From Veleropilina oligotropha (taxonomy: Eukaryota): DNA of 64,000 nt. A program made the position numbers and the translations under genes. The stretch's first letter is position 1, and the number at the start of each line of letters is the position of its first letter. Shown here piece by piece: positions 22,578 through 27,952 of the stretch. The notes beneath the pieces are model-generated. The model saw nothing but the letters and a program-made list of their open reading frames with translations. It made no database searches and was not told the origin of the DNA. Where the stretch lies: contig JBEUKZ010000001.1 in the NCBI GenBank assembly GCA_048128005.1, forward strand, positions 62,001 to 126,000, in the 5' to 3' direction.

Positions 22578-22853
22578 TTATTTCTATAGTGAACATTTTT
22601 TTCGCCGGGGGCATGTATAATAATGGGGCTCCCAGAAGAGCTGTACTGCGCCATGCTTGCGGTCAGCGGGGTGGGCCTTGGTACTACGTCACTCGACTGC
22701 TGGCGGCGCAACGAAAAGACTATGGTGCGGTTCGCGGTCCTGGTGCTCTCCGGGGCCCGACCAACCTTCGGGCGACGACTGCGCAGCGACCGGCTCCGGA
22801 AGCTGAAGCCTGTTGGAGACTGATCAGTTTACTGGAATACATTGCTGGTCTCG

Positions 22854-23831
22854 ATGTCAGCGAAGAGACAGAAGCCCCTGACGGATAAAGAACTCGACGA
22901 AACCCTCCGCAAGTACTACTACGCAGATGGGGGGTTTCAGGGCGTCTCAGCTCTGCACTCAAGGCTTCCAAAAGGCGCAGCCTCAATAAAAAGAATCCGG
23001 ACGTGGCTCTCGACGCAGGAGGTTGGTCGGTACATGCAGACGAAACCCCCTAGAGAAGTCTTTGCCCGTTTCACAGAGGACAGGCCTGGTGTGATCCACC
23101 AGGATGATCTTCTCTACCTCCCACATGACAAGGTCGGCCGTAAAACGTACAAGTACGCGTTGACCTTGGTCGACGTGGCCTCTCGCTACAAGGCGGCCAG
23201 ACCACTAACATCGAAATCGGCCAGCGAGGTAGCTAAGGCGTTTGCTGACATCTACAAGACCAACCCGTCCCGCTTATCCTGGCCAAAAACGCTAATGGTG
23301 GATGACGGGCACGAATTCAAGGGGGAAGTATCCACTCTTCTAGGGAAGCACGGAGTTGATATACGACGCGCAGAGCCGGGTCATCACCGATCGCAGGCAT
23401 TTGTTGAGTCATTCAACCGCCGGCTGGCTGAACGACTTTTCAGGAAGCAAGCACACGAAGAGCTGAACAGCGGCCGGGACAACCGCCAGTGGGTGTCCGT
23501 TCTTCCAGCTGTAGTAGCAGATATGAATGCGACGCCAACACGACTAACTGGTCTTCCTCCAGCAAAGGCAGCCAACATGTCGCAGGTTCCGCTAGTGGCG
23601 ACCAAACCACCCCCCACACCCGAAACGGTGTTACCTATCGGCATGATGGTTTACCTCACCACAAACGAAGAAGACCCGAAAGATACCGGGCGCCGTCGTG
23701 CAACGGATCCATGGTGGACACATAAGCCCTACCCGATTCGCTGTCGCGTATCGGAACCCCACCAACCCGCGCTCTACTACACGCCATTCTCCAAGCATGG
23801 GTTTACACGGTCGCAGCTGAGACCTGCCTAG
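22854..23831 (+). CDS. Retroviral-like (rve, DDE) integrase (325 aa)
   Basis: Catalytic-triad motifs HQDDL, MVDDGHEF and VESFNRRL, plus YALTLVDVASRY. Confidence 0.9.
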   Translation: MSAKRQKPLTDKELDETLRKYYYADGGFQGVSALHSRLPKGAASIKRIRTWLSTQEVGRYMQTKPPREVFARFTEDRPGVIHQDDLLYLPHDKVGRKTYKYALTLVDVASRYKAARPLTSKSASEVAKAFADIYKTNPSRLSWPKTLMVDDGHEFKGEVSTLLGKHGVDIRRAEPGHHRSQAFVESFNRRLAERLFRKQAHEELNSGRDNRQWVSVLPAVVADMNATPTRLTGLPPAKAANMSQVPLVATKPPPTPETVLPIGMMVYLTTNEEDPKDTGRRRATDPWWTHKPYPIRCRVSEPHQPALYYTPFSKHGFTRSQLRPA

Positions 23832-26800
23832 TGTTTGTGTCGACGATTGCAGGACAGGCATGTCAACCGGACGTTCCACGTGTAATGACCCTGACTGTCA
23901 TCCAGGCGGTCGATGCTGAACGTCTGCCCGTGGCATTTCGTGTAGCCCTGGAGAAGGAGAGTACGATGGCAGACCACACACTTCTTTTCTGCGTCGTCGA
24001 TCATGTCGAGCACGTGATTGACGGTGAGCGTGTGGTGTGCTCCCGTGTAGTGGGGCCGTTGCTTTTGGTGATCCTCAACCACGTAACGCTTGAGCCTTGC
24101 GGCGATGAGCTCTCGCGAAGGTGTGGCCTGCTGATCGGTGGGAGTTATATCACCCGGAGCGTCGTCAGGCGGCAGAACCCATACAATCTGATCCATCAAC
24201 CGGGCCCGGCTCACTGCGGTGTATACGGCGTTGCTCACCCAACCACTCAGACCGTGGTCGACGATGTATAGGCGCCTGGGCGGTTGGATGGTCTTCCCTT
24301 GCACCCTATGCACCGTACCCCACCCCGCATATTTCCACTCAAGCGGTAGCCCTGTCTCGACTAGTCCAAGGGGGACTTTGATGATGGTCCCTCGATAGGC
24401 CGGCACGATTTCTCGACTACCTGGTATATGTATGGGCCGACCCTGCTTGCGGTACCGGTACGAGATGCTATCGTCTGGGTCGAATCGAATATTAGCAGGA
24501 AGCCGGGGGTGTATCCTTCTGTGCTGCCGGAGCAGCTGGGTCTGGACCTGCGCGCCTAGAGCGTTCGTGGAGCAGATCCAGATGTCATCGGGATTTGTGC
24601 GCTCTACAGCTTCTACGAACGGCGTTGCGGCCAACTTATCTCTGAAGACGTGGAGCTGTTGCTGGTCATTAGCGCACCACATCCGCGCCTTTACATCGTG
24701 CAAAGCCGATGTTGGCCCATTCTGACAGCGACAGCAGGACCACGGCTCGCCACACGCCTCGCACAGGCACCTATAGTCGGTGTCAAACCACCGCAGGTTC
24801 TGGTTGGGGGACGGGGCCGAGGCCCAGTCTGTTAACATGTGGTGAGGGCCTTCTTTATCGCCCCATGGCGGGATCTGCCCCATATCCCCGGCGCAGATGA
24901 TTTGACACGTCCGCCGGGCGAGATACTCAAGGACGGTCATCAGGGTCTTCGTGGGAATCTTGCAACATTCGTCGATGATGATAACTTCGGCTAGGTTGTC
25001 GAGTCGGTGTCCCAGGGCAGCAGGGTCCCAATCCTCGATCGGCTTGCCGACGGGTAGACATAGGTAGTGGTGGATCGTCTGGACCTGTGCATTCTCTAGA
25101 CCAAGTCTCGGGTCGTTGCGGTGTTCTTGGGCGATGTCGTTCTCAGGGGTGAGCACGACCAGCTTCCGGCCACGAAACGTCTTAACGGCCCACTCGGTTT
25201 TTCCACTGCCGCCTTGACCTGCGAGGTATAGCCGTCGCGAGGTGGCCGCGCCGACATCGGAAGGGAACGGAGGGGCATTCAACCCATGGGGCAAGTCGAG
25301 ACGACCAACATGCTCTATCGTCCAAGCAGCAGCCTCTGGGCGCCACTCATAACCCGGGGATTTGTGTCGCCACTGCCCATACCTAGGCTGGTCTGGGATC
25401 AGCATATGTTCGACCGAATCGGGCAGGCTCTTGACGTATATGGCATCGGTGCAGACACGAAGGACATCCTCTCGTGGGAATCTTCGTAGCATGCGGCGGA
25501 GGGCGATATTCGTGTATGCGAGTACGAAGGCTCGGATGTGGAACCACTGCGTCCGCCGTCTTCCGTCCTTGTACTGAATGAGGTGGACATTGCCGGCCTT
25601 CTCGAAGTTCAGGAGACGGTCAGTGCCGCCGAGAACATTGGCCAAGTAGGCGGCCTCGTTTTGATCGCGGACTAGGATGCTCGACTCATCACCGTGGCGA
25701 GCACACTTGCCAACGAAGCGCACGGCCAGGTCTCGTAATGGGAATTTGATAGCGGCCTTCGTGCCGACGCTGTATACCACTTCGCGCGCGGTGACCTCCA
25801 CCAGATCACCAGAGTCAATCAAGTCTGCAAGCTCGGGGGTAGTGATCCAGCCCTGCTTCTCCCGTAGGTGCTCGCCTACGCGACCTACGGTATAGGGGTG
25901 CGTCTCTGGGCTGAATTGCCACGCAGCGAGCTGCACAGCTCCTGTCAGGGCGAGGACGTCGCTCATGGGCACACCCTCGACGTTCGCACGACGCATCATA
26001 CTCGTCGGGAACCCATACTGGCGCACTAGATCTATGGATTCTCCGACCCCGCCACAGTGGGAGTCTTCGCAGCCAAGGTATGCTGCGCGCATGTCGAGAT
26101 GATGATGAACACTGGTGCCTGCGGCTTCGTCGTCAGAATTCCAGACCTTGGCCTCAACCTGAGCCGCTCTCCAGGTGTCCAGGTGGCTTTCTGGCGTTGG
26201 CTTGATCTCCTCGCGGGCCAACCACTTCTGGAACCGGTAAGACGTGGCGCCACCCATGGAGTGGGTAGCTCGGTGGTATTCCTCTTCAAGCTTCTTAAGC
26301 TCTTTGGGGATCTCGGAAGGATGCCAATGCGTCTCGTCCTCGAAAGCGTGGTCAATAGCAAAAATAAATACTTACTTACTTACTAATAGCCATACCCTCA
26401 GCCCTCGACCTCCACAGGGAACCATCACTACCCACGAGAGCCTGTCCACATACCCACACCCGGACCGTCGATGGGATGGCCCTGGTGGCAAATGCGATCA
26501 GAACCTCTCTGGTAATTTGGTCCATGGTCTTCTGGGCCGCAGTGGTCTTTGGGGCCGCAATGGTCTTCTGGGCCGCAGACGCAAGGGCCTGTTCTGCGAT
26601 GTCGTCGAGACTGTACACCTGTAAGATCTTGGGTGGATCGATCGGGATGCTTGCCCATGCGTGGTTGTTATGGCACGGTATCCGAATCTTGGGCCGGCCC
26701 TTGTATTTACCGCTGTCCCATAGAGTGTTGCCTAACGCGTCGACGGCAACAAGCTTGAATTTGAGAGCCGCTTCAATGGAGAACATATCATCGCGTGTGC

Positions 26801-27905
26801 AGCCCCGGTCCGCAAGCTTCCGGTCGAACTGCTCCAGAATCTGTCTGCGGCTCCTCGTTAACCCGTGTCCGGCTTTCGTCATGTTGTTCTGGAAGTGGTC
26901 CACCACACAGCGAACGAAGCAGTTTACAAACTCTCCGTCTTCTTGAGGGGCTAGCATTGGCCCCGGTTCTCCTTTTTGCTCCGGAAGCGGACGAAACTCG
27001 TACCGGATGTAGACGAGATACTCTCGCCCCTTCTCCCACGCCGCCTGGTCGATGCCGTGAAGAGCCCCGGCGCTGACCTGGTCTCCGCGAACCACCCCCT
27101 TCCCCTTAATGTGATGCTCAGAGACACCCACTTCCTCTGTCACTTGGGCAAGAGGCTCCTTGGCCGATTTCCCCACCACCGTGAACAGCTTGTACTGTGT
27201 GTCGGGGTCTAGAAGTTCCAACACCTCCGAGGCCATGCCCAGCGTCACCCGAAGATCCCTCTTTTCACACGATACCCAATACACCGCGCCTTCGTCTGTG
27301 ATGTCAGGCCCCCGTACAACAGCCTGGAAGTCGAATCTACGACCATCAACAGCCTCGGTAATCTCTTTACGGACGACGTCAGCGCCCGTCTTAATATAAG
27401 CCCCATCGGGGAACAGGACTGCGACACCGTCAACGAGAAGGGAATAATACTCATCCGAGGTCAAGTGATCTCTCGGAACATCCCGGAGGGGGGGCCCCCC
27501 CTTCCGAGCAATAGCCCCCGCAAGGGTCTCTTTCCGAGACCGAGTCAGACCGTGCAGGTGTGGCTTGATGATTAGATCCGTGATGTTGCGAAGTGCCGTC
27601 TGTCGTAGCGAGGGCTTTTTCTCAGCCCGGGTTTCGTATTTACGGACCTTGAGAGCCACACCGACCTCGTCCTTAAGCTGCTGCAATTCGCGAGCACGAC
27701 GGCCTCGTTTGTGGGGGTTCTCCACATCTCCACGGATGGAGGGGAATCTTCCCGTCTTCATTGCCCGCTCGAGTCTCCTCCGAAACTCGGCCGCACGGAC
27801 CCCGGCCAATGCCCTGATGAGGTCGTTTCTCTTGAGCTTCGACCGATCGGGAATCCCATAATCTCTCGCTAGATTGCGTAGCTCTCTGAGGGAGACACGT
27901 ACCAT
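23828..27905 (-). pseudogene. Replication polyprotein (OTU-like / PolB palm / SF1 helicase / HNH), 1348 aa once a 31-bp insertion at 26360-26390 is removed
   Basis: PolB motifs DMRAAY and VCTDAIY; SF1 motifs GQGGSGKT, IIDEC, GDMGQIPP, TVHRVQGKT and YTAVSRA; HNH-like CVVC...DRLD...GH...N...CLSCN. Confidence 0.85.
26360..26384 (+). mobile_element. 25-bp extremely 5'-truncated retroposon tail
   Basis: AAAAATAAA followed by (TACT)4, flanked by the direct repeat AATAGC at 26354-26359 and 26385-26390. Confidence 0.7.
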
Positions 27906-27952
27906 CTCTATGTCGGGTATACACTGGGACAGCCACTCCTCTAATAGGAAAT

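What the first reader, a model, noticed from the sequence alone, without database searches (positions are those of the whole stretch)
22848..27930. Integrase + replicase cassette swapped between otherwise closely related viruses
Seen: the flanking genes are near-identical (141/142 and 76/79 aa; the zinc-finger genes align base by base), but the convergent integrase/replicase pair aligns only at protein motifs. Similarity ends at GGAATACATTGCTG (~22847 / ~42155) and at TTTCCTATTAGAG (~27939 / ~37462). The extreme termini also differ (G-run vs AGCAGCAG). Inference: a modular genome in which one capsid module pairs with alternative replication/integration cassettes and their cognate ends.
Basis: partly seen in the sequence, partly recalled or inferred. 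Interest (0 to 1): 0.78.

Follow-up and report, generated by a model that had tools for sequence, protein, structure and literature searches.

The report
Swapped replication genes in twin proviruses
Two neighbouring integrated copies of a small capsid-encoding DNA virus share their capsid genes but carry very different versions of their integrase and replication genes, a clean and fairly recent example of the module swapping already known to be common in this virus group.

Summary
The window holds two GC-rich (~55%) Maverick/Polinton-type proviruses in AT-rich, ORF-poor DNA: E1 (13080-28540) and E2 (36033-51593, inverted). They align at 81-90% nt over the capsid/packaging genes and a small zinc-ribbon gene. 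Between 22848-27934 (E1) and 42154-37467 (E2), DNA identity is 52%, the same as a shuffled control.

That interval holds two convergent genes: an rve integrase (43.5% aa between copies) and a ~1,300-aa replicase (about 30% aa). The replicase has a phi29-like polymerase fold, an SF1B helicase and an HNH nuclease.

Trees conflict. The capsid proteins are sisters (100/100). The integrases fall in two deep clades, and an AU test rejects sisterhood (p about 1e-5). 11 of 14 metagenomic relatives carry the E2-type integrase and none the E1-type, so E1 probably took in a foreign pair.

The junctions sit at the integrase start codon and at a 16-nt motif upstream of the replicase. Relatives pair the same capsid module with protein-primed PolB, so integrase and replicase also assort separately.

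"Cognate ends" is unproven: the ends appear to follow the replicase kind. Module switching in this group is already described in 2026 preprints, so this is a new member of a known kind.

The parts
13080..28540 (.). E1: integrated Maverick/Polinton-type element, 15.46 kb, GC ~55% in ~36% GC surroundings
   Evidence: GC profile; 225-nt TIRs 99% complementary; gene content
13080..13304 (+). E1 left terminal inverted repeat (starts with a G run followed by ACTAGGG)
28316..28540 (-). E1 right terminal inverted repeat
14119..22847 (.). E1 morphogenesis block shared with E2 (81-90% nt by BLAST piece; 72-99% in 200-nt windows)
18741..20045 (+). E1 major capsid protein, 434 aa (85% aa to E2's)
   Evidence: Weak Pfam Capsid_N hit in 32 of 32 family members, best E 8e-5, below the curated cut-off. 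Atlas neighbours score 0.97-0.99 and are viral, some with DJR/Capsid_N domains. 2846 homologs, one named 'Major capsid protein' by UniRef.
19996..20651 (+). E1 A32-like packaging ATPase, reading frame interrupted (two ORFs, 19996-20358 and 20373-20651)
   Evidence: Pfam Pox_A32. tblastn with E2's intact 192-aa ATPase: residues 1-80 lie in one frame up to 20259, residues 45-192 in another from 20142.
22149..22577 (+). 142-aa gene next to the left junction, 141/142 aa identical to E2's, dS 0.18, dN/dS 0.02
22854..23831 (+). E1 rve integrase, 325 aa, clade A (nearest database relatives 81%)
   Evidence: Pfam PF00665, 32.7 bits against cut-off 32.6; homologs; tree
23828..27905 (-). E1 replicase, one gene read as two ORFs (26376-27905, 509 aa; 23828-26257, 809 aa). 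The frame break lies within about 26358-26378, in an AT-rich stretch.
   Evidence: Intact relatives are 1264-1377 aa; P0241 residues 2-503 and 532-1337 match the two ORFs. Pfam Rho_N and AAA_30. PHROG Dda-like helicase and endonuclease VII/HNH. AF2 model pLDDT 85.9. SF1B helicases Z 21-23 over residues 334-696. phi29 DNA polymerase Foldseek E 7e-8.
27939..27954 (-). 16-nt motif AAATTTCCTATTAGAG upstream of the E1 replicase start, at the right junction
27953..28246 (-). E1 zinc-ribbon ORF, 97 aa (CxxC...CxxC), 90% nt to E2's
36033..51593 (.). E2: second element, 15.56 kb, inverted relative to E1
36033..36242 (+). E2 left TIR (starts AGCAGCA followed by a run of seven G). A further copy of the terminal ~40 nt lies at 36317-36367.
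51426..51593 (-). E2 right TIR; inner copy of the terminal sequence at 51371-51412
37110..37448 (+). E2 zinc-ribbon ORF, 112 aa
37447..37462 (+). Same 16-nt motif upstream of the E2 replicase; a one-mismatch copy at 36912-36927 (-)
37497..41166 (+). E2 replicase, one gene in two frames (37497-39281, then 39139-41166). The frame changes at about 39135-39138.
   Evidence: L001 encodes a single 1209-aa ORF that is 74% identical to both parts. Pfam AAA_30. PHROG helicase and HNH.
41156..42154 (-). E2 rve integrase, 332 aa, clade B (70-78% to 11 metagenomic relatives)
   Evidence: Pfam PF00665, 34.1 bits
42155..50924 (.). E2 morphogenesis block (MCP 44942-46243 -, intact ATPase 44392-44970 -)

Best explanation
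E1 and E2 are two integrated genomes of one capsid lineage of Maverick/Polinton-type double-jelly-roll viruses (Polisuviricotina). They lie 7.5 kb apart in opposite orientation in a eukaryote's DNA, probably a marine invertebrate's. Both carry the same morphogenesis module.

The two convergent genes at one end exist in two distantly related versions:
- an rve (DDE) integrase;
- a ~1,300-aa replicase, with a SAP/Rho_N-like N-terminus, a region of unknown fold, a phi29-like polymerase fold, an SF1B helicase and an HNH nuclease.

The difference arose by recombination between related viruses, not by fast divergence. The crossovers lie in the nearest conserved DNA on either side. On the left that is the integrase start codon, which is also the end of the upstream gene. 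On the right it is a conserved 16-nt promoter-like motif 30-45 nt upstream of the replicase start.

The 3' ends of the two genes overlap, so no conserved DNA lies between them. A single homologous exchange therefore carries both genes.

E1 most likely holds the incoming pair, because relatives of this capsid lineage nearly all have the E2-type integrase.

Shown: the anatomy, the break points, the tree conflict and the distribution among relatives. Inferred: homologous recombination as the mechanism, the direction of the exchange, and the promoter role of the motif.
For: Break points and identities.

Gene identities: Pfam and PHROG. Structure model with SF1B helicase matches at Z 21-23 and phi29 polymerase at Foldseek E 7e-8.

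Trees:
- MCP tree of 9 rows: E1+E2 supported 100/100.
- Integrase tree of 47 rows: E1 groups with 21 database proteins, E2 with all 7 loci, and the separating branch is 100/100.
- AU test of E1+E2 held together: lnL difference 382, p-AU 9.6e-6.

Own relatives: the E1-type integrase has relatives at 50-81% identity, then a gap to the 41-46% crowd. The E1-type replicase has relatives at 72-74%.

Distribution: among 14 metagenomic loci with at least 600 nt beyond the 142-aa gene, 11 have the E2-type integrase (70-78% aa) although their MCPs are only 48-77% identical to the window's. None has the E1-type. So the integrase normally evolves no faster than the capsid.

L001, the nearest capsid relative, has E2-type versions of both genes.

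Shared genes have dN/dS of 0.02-0.37, so divergence built up under selection, i.e. while the genes were functioning in a virus.

The 16-nt motif lies upstream of the replicase in E1, E2, L001, L004 and L006, whichever kind of replicase follows.
Against: - No reads or independent contigs could be laid on the junctions; none was listed. The assembly is therefore unverified.
- The genomic context of E1-type integrases and replicases elsewhere could not be fetched, so the donor lineage is unknown. Linkage of the two E1-type genes elsewhere rests on one shared contig length (375862).
- The shared part is a mosaic (dS 0.18-0.95), so more than one exchange took place and the order of events is open.
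- The motif pattern was derived from the same sequences it was then counted in. Only its uniqueness per locus and its position are informative.
Confidence: 0.8

Rival explanations
1. No exchange took place. The integrase and replicase of one copy simply evolved much faster than the rest of the genome after E1 and E2 split.
For: Both versions are homologous along their whole length and keep the same order, orientation and domain plan.
Against: The AU test rejects E1+E2 sisterhood for the integrase. E1's genes have their own relatives at 72-81%. The E2-type integrase stays at 70-78% across relatives whose capsids are 48-77% identical. Identity drops from 98% to background within a few bases at both ends.
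Confidence: 0.02
2. Assembly chimera. The assembler joined E1-like flanks to the integrase/replicase pair of a third, different element through the shared sequences at the junctions.
For: The flanks are repeats within the same contig. No sequencing run could be listed to check the joins.
Against: Both junctions fall exactly at gene boundaries. The upstream ORF and the integrase read through the left junction. E1's two TIRs are 99% alike, and E1's flanks differ from E2's by 3-20%, so they are not copied from E2. A misjoin would itself require a third element with near-identical flanks and this pair of genes, so the polymorphism would still exist.
Confidence: 0.05
3. Two separate replacements. 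Integrase and replicase were exchanged in independent events and are not a functional cassette.
For: Relatives combine the E2-type integrase with an E2-type helicase replicase (L001) or with protein-primed PolB (L004, L006, L018). L005 has PolB without an integrase. L010 has an A32-like ATPase-domain gene in the integrase slot.
Against: Between E1 and E2 there is no conserved DNA between the two genes, whose 3' ends overlap by 4 and 11 nt. One double crossover therefore explains everything. Barth et al. 2026 report that replicase class associates stably with integration genes (section 11 read).
Confidence: 0.2
4. Homing-like gene conversion. The nuclease domain carried by the replicase cuts a co-infecting genome that lacks this allele, and repair copies the donor's replicase and the neighbouring integrase up to the first homologous DNA.
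For: An HNH/endonuclease VII domain is found in E1, E2 and L001 (PHROG E 2e-7 to 8e-15). It is also found in the PolB of L010 (Pfam Endonuclease_7, 35.4 bits, above cut-off) and more weakly in L004 and L006. Break points lie at the first conserved DNA on each side. The idea is raised for this virus group in Barth et al. 2026 (section 13 read).
Against: No cleavage site or nuclease activity is known. Co-conversion from a divergent donor should make the adjacent flanks more different, but the 900 nt left of the junction are the most similar part (93-97%). L005's PolB shows no such domain.
Confidence: 0.12
5. E1 and E2 are two different viruses whose flanks were made alike after integration, by gene conversion between the two nearby inverted copies in the host chromosome.
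For: The copies are 7.5 kb apart and inverted. Tracts of 94-99% identity alternate with tracts of about 80%.
Against: Even the most similar gene has dS 0.18 with dN/dS 0.02, and all shared genes have dN/dS of 0.37 or less. The differences therefore built up under purifying selection, not in dead copies. No long identical tract exists.
Confidence: 0.08

Closest known systems
Replication-module turnover in Polisuviricotina (Barth, Ha and Aylward, bioRxiv 10.64898/2026.10.13.758929; abstract and sections 11 and 13 read)
   Same: One morphogenesis module is paired with different replicases. Replicase class is associated with integration genes. [quoted passage not shown] It discusses homing nucleases as drivers.
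   Different: Here the two copies are integrated, inverted and 7.5 kb apart. The exchange is between two distant versions of the same replicase plan and between two rve clades, not between replicase classes. Break points are resolved to the base. No repeats bracket the exchanged genes.
Group 2 Maverick-Polintons of animal genomes (bioRxiv 10.64898/2026.06.19.733378; passages read)
   Same: rve integrase, DJR capsid and A32 ATPase. pPolB is often replaced by an SF1 helicase fused to a weakly detectable polymerase. [quoted passage not shown]
   Different: Membership in that particular group was not tested with its markers. No adenain-like protease was detected by Pfam.
Tlr1-like SF1 helicase plus inactivated protein-primed PolB fusions of polinton-like viruses, Tlr1 and transpovirons (Krupovic, Yutin and Koonin 2016, PMC5499653; abstract and passages read)
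   Same: A large replicase that combines an SF1 helicase, a PolB-related part and, in PLVs, an HNH nuclease domain. An rve integrase is present in Tlr1.
   Different: In the window the phi29-like fold lies N-terminal to the helicase and the HNH lies at the C-terminus. Sequence-profile comparison with the PolBs of related loci found nothing. Whether the polymerase part is active was not determined.
Modular exchange in lambdoid and other tailed phages (Botstein's modular theory; recalled, not read here)
   Same: Functionally equivalent, non-homologous or distant modules are exchanged at conserved boundary sequences between genes.
   Different: This is a eukaryotic virus with linear TIR-bounded DNA, and the exchanged unit includes the integrase.

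Membership tests
Polinton/Maverick (Polintoviricetes) | Retrovirus-like rve (DDE) integrase | tested here: met
   Pfam PF00665: 32.7 bits (E1) and 34.1 bits (E2) against a cut-off of 32.6
Polinton/Maverick (Polintoviricetes) | [quoted passage not shown] | tested here: inconclusive
   No PF03175 hit in E1 or E2. hhalign against relatives' PolB found nothing. Foldseek matches phi29 polymerase at E 7e-8 over 397 columns, and the Atlas gives a lead at 0.84. Relatives L004, L005, L006, L010 and L018 with the same capsid do carry PF03175-type PolB.
Polinton/Maverick (Polintoviricetes) | Double jelly-roll major capsid protein and A32-like packaging ATPase | tested here: met
   Pox_A32 at 40.4 bits for E2. 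Capsid_N is weak but present in 32 of 32 family members. Atlas neighbours score 0.97-0.99 and are viral with DJR domains.
Polinton/Maverick (Polintoviricetes) | Adenain-like maturation protease | tested here: inconclusive
   No Pfam or PHROG hit on any ORF. Several 200-420-aa ORFs remain unassigned.
Polinton/Maverick (Polintoviricetes) | Terminal inverted repeats and short target-site duplication | tested here: inconclusive
   TIRs are clear. Only imperfect 5-bp direct repeats flank each element, 4 of 5 matching, read by eye.
SF1B helicases (Pif1/RecD/Dda) | Walker A/B core and SF1B fold | tested here: met
   Pfam AAA_30. PDB profile hits to Dda and Pif1 at E about 1e-5. VIA Z 21-23, rmsd 3.3-4.0 over ~292 residues, model residues 334-696.
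HNH/endonuclease VII nucleases | C-terminal Cys/His nuclease motif | tested here: met
   phrog_1035 and phrog_3322 at E 2e-7 (E1) and 8e-15 (E2). Invariant C, H and N residues at the C-terminus of alignment A5.
Tlr1-like helicase/inactivated pDNAP fusion (Krupovic 2016) | SF1 helicase fused to a PolB-derived domain lacking catalytic residues | tested here: inconclusive
   The fusion of a phi29-like fold with an SF1B helicase is supported. Catalytic-residue status and direct homology to the Tlr1 family were not tested.

The most novel reading that the evidence does not exclude
The unit that moves may be 'replicase plus genome ends', with the integrase as a passenger. The ends appear to carry the replication origin recognised by a given replicase. 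The two PolB-type relatives L004 and L005 share their first ~34 nt (23 of 34 identical, against at most 21 in 2000 shuffles), although L004 has the E2-type integrase and L005 has none. E2 and L004, which share the integrase clade, have unrelated ends.

A conserved 16-nt promoter-like motif in front of every replicase kind would then act as a universal docking boundary, letting any replicase be plugged into the same capsid chassis. The nuclease domain found in all three replicase kinds would drive the exchange by homing-like gene conversion.
Probability: 0.15. Interest if true: 0.65.

Novelty: new member of a known kind. Interest (0 to 1): 0.36.

Why it matters
Module switching between capsid and replication genes is now seen as a main force in the evolution of polintons, polinton-like viruses and virophages. 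It is mostly inferred from trees over deep time. This window gives a young case with both parents' arrangements side by side and break points resolved to the base. One break lies at a start codon and the other at a conserved 16-nt element that precedes three different kinds of replicase.

That makes two questions directly testable. First, are exchanges guided by conserved regulatory boundaries? Second, do the genome ends go with the replicase or with the integrase? The finding does not change the current picture. It illustrates it.

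Tried and rejected
- Whole genome: none is held, so other genomic copies could not be surveyed.
- Scans for related loci: viral contigs with the MCP and with the E1-type integrase alignment returned nothing. Genome contigs with the MCP alignment and the integrase alignment also returned nothing.
- Sequencing runs for 22300-28300: none was listed, so no reads were laid.
- Earlier findings of this scan: nothing by place or by sequence.
- Exact TCTATTAG as a general promoter word: 4 matches against 1.9 expected, not significant. It was replaced by the longer motif.
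- hhalign of helicase-type replicases against relatives' PolB: no match.
- N-terminal 509 aa of the E1 replicase (model pLDDT 72.8): no Foldseek match below E 0.04. The best VIA-wide Z is 5.9, and only for the Rho_N/SAP-like first 43 residues. The fold of residues ~150-509 remains unassigned.
- VIA second look at the 809-aa model listed only helicases in its top 50. The phi29 match therefore rests on Foldseek alone.
- PDB profile search with the MCP alignment: nothing.
- Further fragments of such elements outside E1 and E2: none by tblastn with all 281 fetched proteins plus the window's own.
- Repeats bracketing the exchanged genes: none at the junctions.
- E1 or E2 termini in the 80 loci: none.
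- Host ORFs: only a reverse-transcriptase fragment was identified.

Full report
**Anatomy.** The window is AT-rich (about 31-40% GC) and poor in long ORFs. Two islands of about 55% GC are densely coding.
- E1 spans 13080-28540. It is bounded by 225-nt inverted repeats that are 99% complementary.
- E2 spans 36033-51593, with terminal inverted repeats of about 170-210 nt (85-nt and 75-nt arms at 96% and 93%). It lies in the opposite orientation, 7.5 kb away.
- tblastn with all fetched proteins finds no further fragments of such elements outside E1 and E2.
- The only recognisable host-side feature is a reverse-transcriptase fragment at 5977-6402.

**What the elements are.** Pfam and PHROG identify the following:
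- an A32-like packaging ATPase;
- an rve integrase, just above Pfam's cut-off in both copies;
- a large protein with an SF1 helicase core (AAA_30; Dda-like) and a C-terminal HNH/endonuclease VII domain.

The 434-aa protein at 18741-20045 is the major capsid protein:
- It has 2846 homologs, one named 'Major capsid protein' by UniRef for a sea slug.
- All 32 aligned family members give a weak Capsid_N hit.
- Its Atlas neighbours (0.97-0.99) are viral clusters, some with double-jelly-roll domains.

Named relatives come from sea slugs (Elysia), from MAGs of clam symbionts (probably host contamination) and, for the E1-type replicase, from glomeromycete fungi. The host is therefore probably a marine invertebrate, but this was not determined. 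Such elements are very abundant in mollusc genomes (bioRxiv 10.1101/2025.04.19.649669, passages read).

**Checking the observation.**
- E1 14119-22847 matches E2 50924-42155 at 81-90%. E1 27935-28223 matches E2 37466-37178 at 90%. One 70-nt hit lies between.
- At the left junction, 145 of 148 aligned bases are identical in the last 150 nt and 61 of 141 in the next 150 nt. At the right junction the figures are 61 of 144 inside and 139 of 150 outside.
- The exchanged interval as a whole is 52% identical, no better than against shuffled sequence at 51%.
- At protein level: 142-aa gene 141/142; 79-aa gene 76/79; zinc-ribbon ORF 80/97; integrases 43.5%; replicase parts 30-34%.

**The replicase.** In both copies the replicase is one gene read as two ORFs.
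- Intact relatives of the E1 type are 1264-1377 aa. P0241 covers E1's 509-aa ORF with residues 2-503 and its 809-aa ORF with residues 532-1337.
- L001 encodes a single 1209-aa ORF that is 74% identical to both E2 ORFs.
- The frame breaks lie at about 26358-26378 in E1, in an AT-rich stretch, and at about 39135-39138 in E2.
- E1's ATPase frame is also interrupted, at a short mononucleotide run, so a sequencing error cannot be excluded there.
- The two replicase types are homologous end to end at 26-30% identity.
- An AlphaFold model of E1's 809-aa part (pLDDT 85.9) matches RecD2, Pif1 and Dda helicases over residues 334-696 (Z 21-23, rmsd 3.3-4.0, about 292 aligned).
- By Foldseek alone, the same model matches phi29 DNA polymerase (E 7e-8, 397 columns). 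This agrees with an Atlas lead to DNA_pol_B_2 clusters (0.84). Profile comparison with the PolBs of related loci found nothing.
- The N-terminal 509 aa remain unassigned except for a Rho_N/SAP-like start.

**Exchange or fast evolution.** Eighty loci related by capsid protein were fetched from metagenomes.
- Sixteen hold the 142-aa gene, and 14 of these have at least 600 nt beyond it.
- Of those 14, 11 carry an integrase 70-78% identical to E2's and 39-47% to E1's. Three (L005, L010, L012) show no rve match. None carries the E1 type.
- These loci's capsid proteins are only 48-77% identical to the window's. The integrase therefore normally evolves no faster than the capsid.
- E1's integrase has its own relatives at 50-81%, followed by a gap to the large 41-46% group.

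Trees:
- The capsid tree has nine rows: the window's two plus the seven loci with a capsid HSP of at least 380 aa and an integrase HSP of at least 200 aa. L003, L018, L027 and L076 were left out as too short. It puts E1 and E2 together at 100/100.
- The integrase tree has 47 rows: the same nine, plus 21 proteins chosen from hits P0121-P0166 and 17 chosen from P0167-P0240. It splits into two deep clades at 100/100, with E1 in one and E2 with all seven loci in the other. One long-branch row that I had labelled 'other' fell on the E1 side.
- Forcing E1 and E2 together costs 382 log-likelihood units, p-AU 9.6e-6.

The rate explanation is therefore rejected.

**Cassette or independent parts.** The same capsid lineage carries other arrangements.
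- L004, L006 and L018 have the E2-type integrase convergent with a ~1,200-aa protein-primed PolB.
- L005 has that PolB and no integrase.
- L010 has a distant PolB and an A32-like ATPase-domain gene in the integrase slot.
- PolB fragments also occur in L035, L069, L074 and L075.

So integrase and replicase assort separately in the clade. Between E1 and E2, however, the genes' 3' ends overlap (4 and 11 nt). This leaves no conserved DNA between them, so one double crossover moves both. No repeats bracket the exchanged genes.

**The junctions.**
- The left junction is the integrase start codon, which is also the end of the small upstream ORF.
- The right junction lies at AAATTTCCTATTAGAG, 30-45 nt upstream of the replicase start.
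- With one mismatch allowed, the motif class AAATTYYCWWTTAGAG occurs three times in the window against 0.03 expected.
- It occurs exactly once each in L001, L004 and L006, each time just upstream of the replicase, whether helicase-type or PolB. The pattern was derived from these same sequences, so only its uniqueness and position count as evidence. L005 lacks it.
- Related words precede the zinc-ribbon gene, and E2's 870-nt non-coding subterminal region holds several more copies.

I read the motif as a conserved early-promoter-like boundary at which exchanges are either favoured or survive selection. This is inference.

**The flanks are a mosaic.** Identity in 200-nt windows ranges from 0.72 to 0.99:
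- 94-99% at 16.0-17.0 kb;
- 77-86% across the capsid and ATPase genes;
- 93-97% in the 900 nt left of the junction.

dS per gene runs from 0.18 to 0.95, with dN/dS of 0.02-0.37. Several exchanges must therefore have occurred. The differences built up under purifying selection, which argues against homogenisation of dead copies in the chromosome.

**The ends.** E1's and E2's TIRs share inner blocks but differ completely in the outer ~55 nt.
- Only two further elements have readable ends. The first bases of L004 and L005, both PolB-type, agree at 23 of 34 positions; the null mean is 13.2 and the maximum 21 in 2000 shuffles.
- E2 against L004, which share the integrase clade and have a capsid distance similar to that between L004 and L005, is at the null level of 13 of 34.

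With four elements this is a hint, not a test. It suggests that the ends go with the replicase kind rather than the integrase. The contig ends of L004 and L005 are assumed to be true genome ends.

**Comparison with what is known.**
[quoted passage not shown] It adds that animal 'group 2' Maverick-Polintons often replace PolB with SF1 helicase fusions (passages read).
- Another describes genome-level and domain-level mosaicism and a stable association of replicases with integration genes. [quoted passage not shown]
- Krupovic et al. 2016 described the SF1 helicase/PolB-remnant fusions with HNH domains (abstract and passages read).

This window adds a young, base-resolved instance that involves two rve clades. 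My two literature searches turned up no description of the 16-nt boundary motif or of end/replicase co-variation. That is a limited search.

**Verdict.** 'Cassette' and 'cognate ends' are only partly supported. This is a new member of a known kind, of moderate interest.

Noticed in passing
window 36243-37109, 51371-51412: E2 has an 870-nt non-coding subterminal region with no counterpart in E1. It holds several copies of the CCTATTAGAG-type motif (36373, 36506, 36914, 37125). A second, inner copy of the ~40-nt terminal sequence lies at each end (36317-36367 and 51371-51412). These may be binding-site arrays for the replicase or integrase.
   Followed up: partly
window 14119-22847 vs 50924-42155: The shared capsid block is itself a mosaic. 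Tracts of 94-99% identity (16.0-17.0 kb, 21.95-22.85 kb) alternate with tracts of 77-86%. dS ranges from 0.18 to 0.95 between genes.
   Followed up: partly
L005:9000-12000: In metagenomic relative L005, GC rises from about 0.40 to about 0.50 across the PolB gene. This is a compositional sign that its replicase was also acquired recently. L005 has no integrase.
   Followed up: no
L010:4819-9079: Relative L010 carries a 360-aa protein with an A32-like ATPase domain where the others have the integrase. It is convergent with a distant PolB (36-38% to L004-L006) that holds a clear Endonuclease_7 domain.
   Followed up: partly
window 23828-24100, 41000-41166; L004, L006, L010 PolB genes: All three replicase kinds in this capsid lineage carry an HNH/endonuclease VII-type nuclease domain. 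It is C-terminal in the helicase types and lies just before the polymerase domain in the PolBs.
   Followed up: partly
window 13075-13079 / 28541-28547 and 36028-36032 / 51594-51598: Possible 5-bp target-site duplications flank both elements, each matching at only 4 of 5 positions. These were read by eye and are weak.
   Followed up: no
window 8168-9533 vs 30308-31424; 8569-8722 vs 34999-35152; 10323-10672 vs 11081-11427: Host-side repeats in inverted orientation lie on both sides of E1 (85-92% identity). An extremely AT-rich stretch (GC 13-26% at 10-12 kb) holds its own 350-nt inverted repeat.
   Followed up: no
proteins P0254, P0257, P0266, P0268, P0269, P0274, P0276: Relatives of the E1-type replicase at 33-43% identity are annotated in glomeromycete fungi (Rhizophagus, Diversispora, Acaulospora), and one at 65% in a sea slug. 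The replicase lineage therefore spans very different hosts.
   Followed up: no
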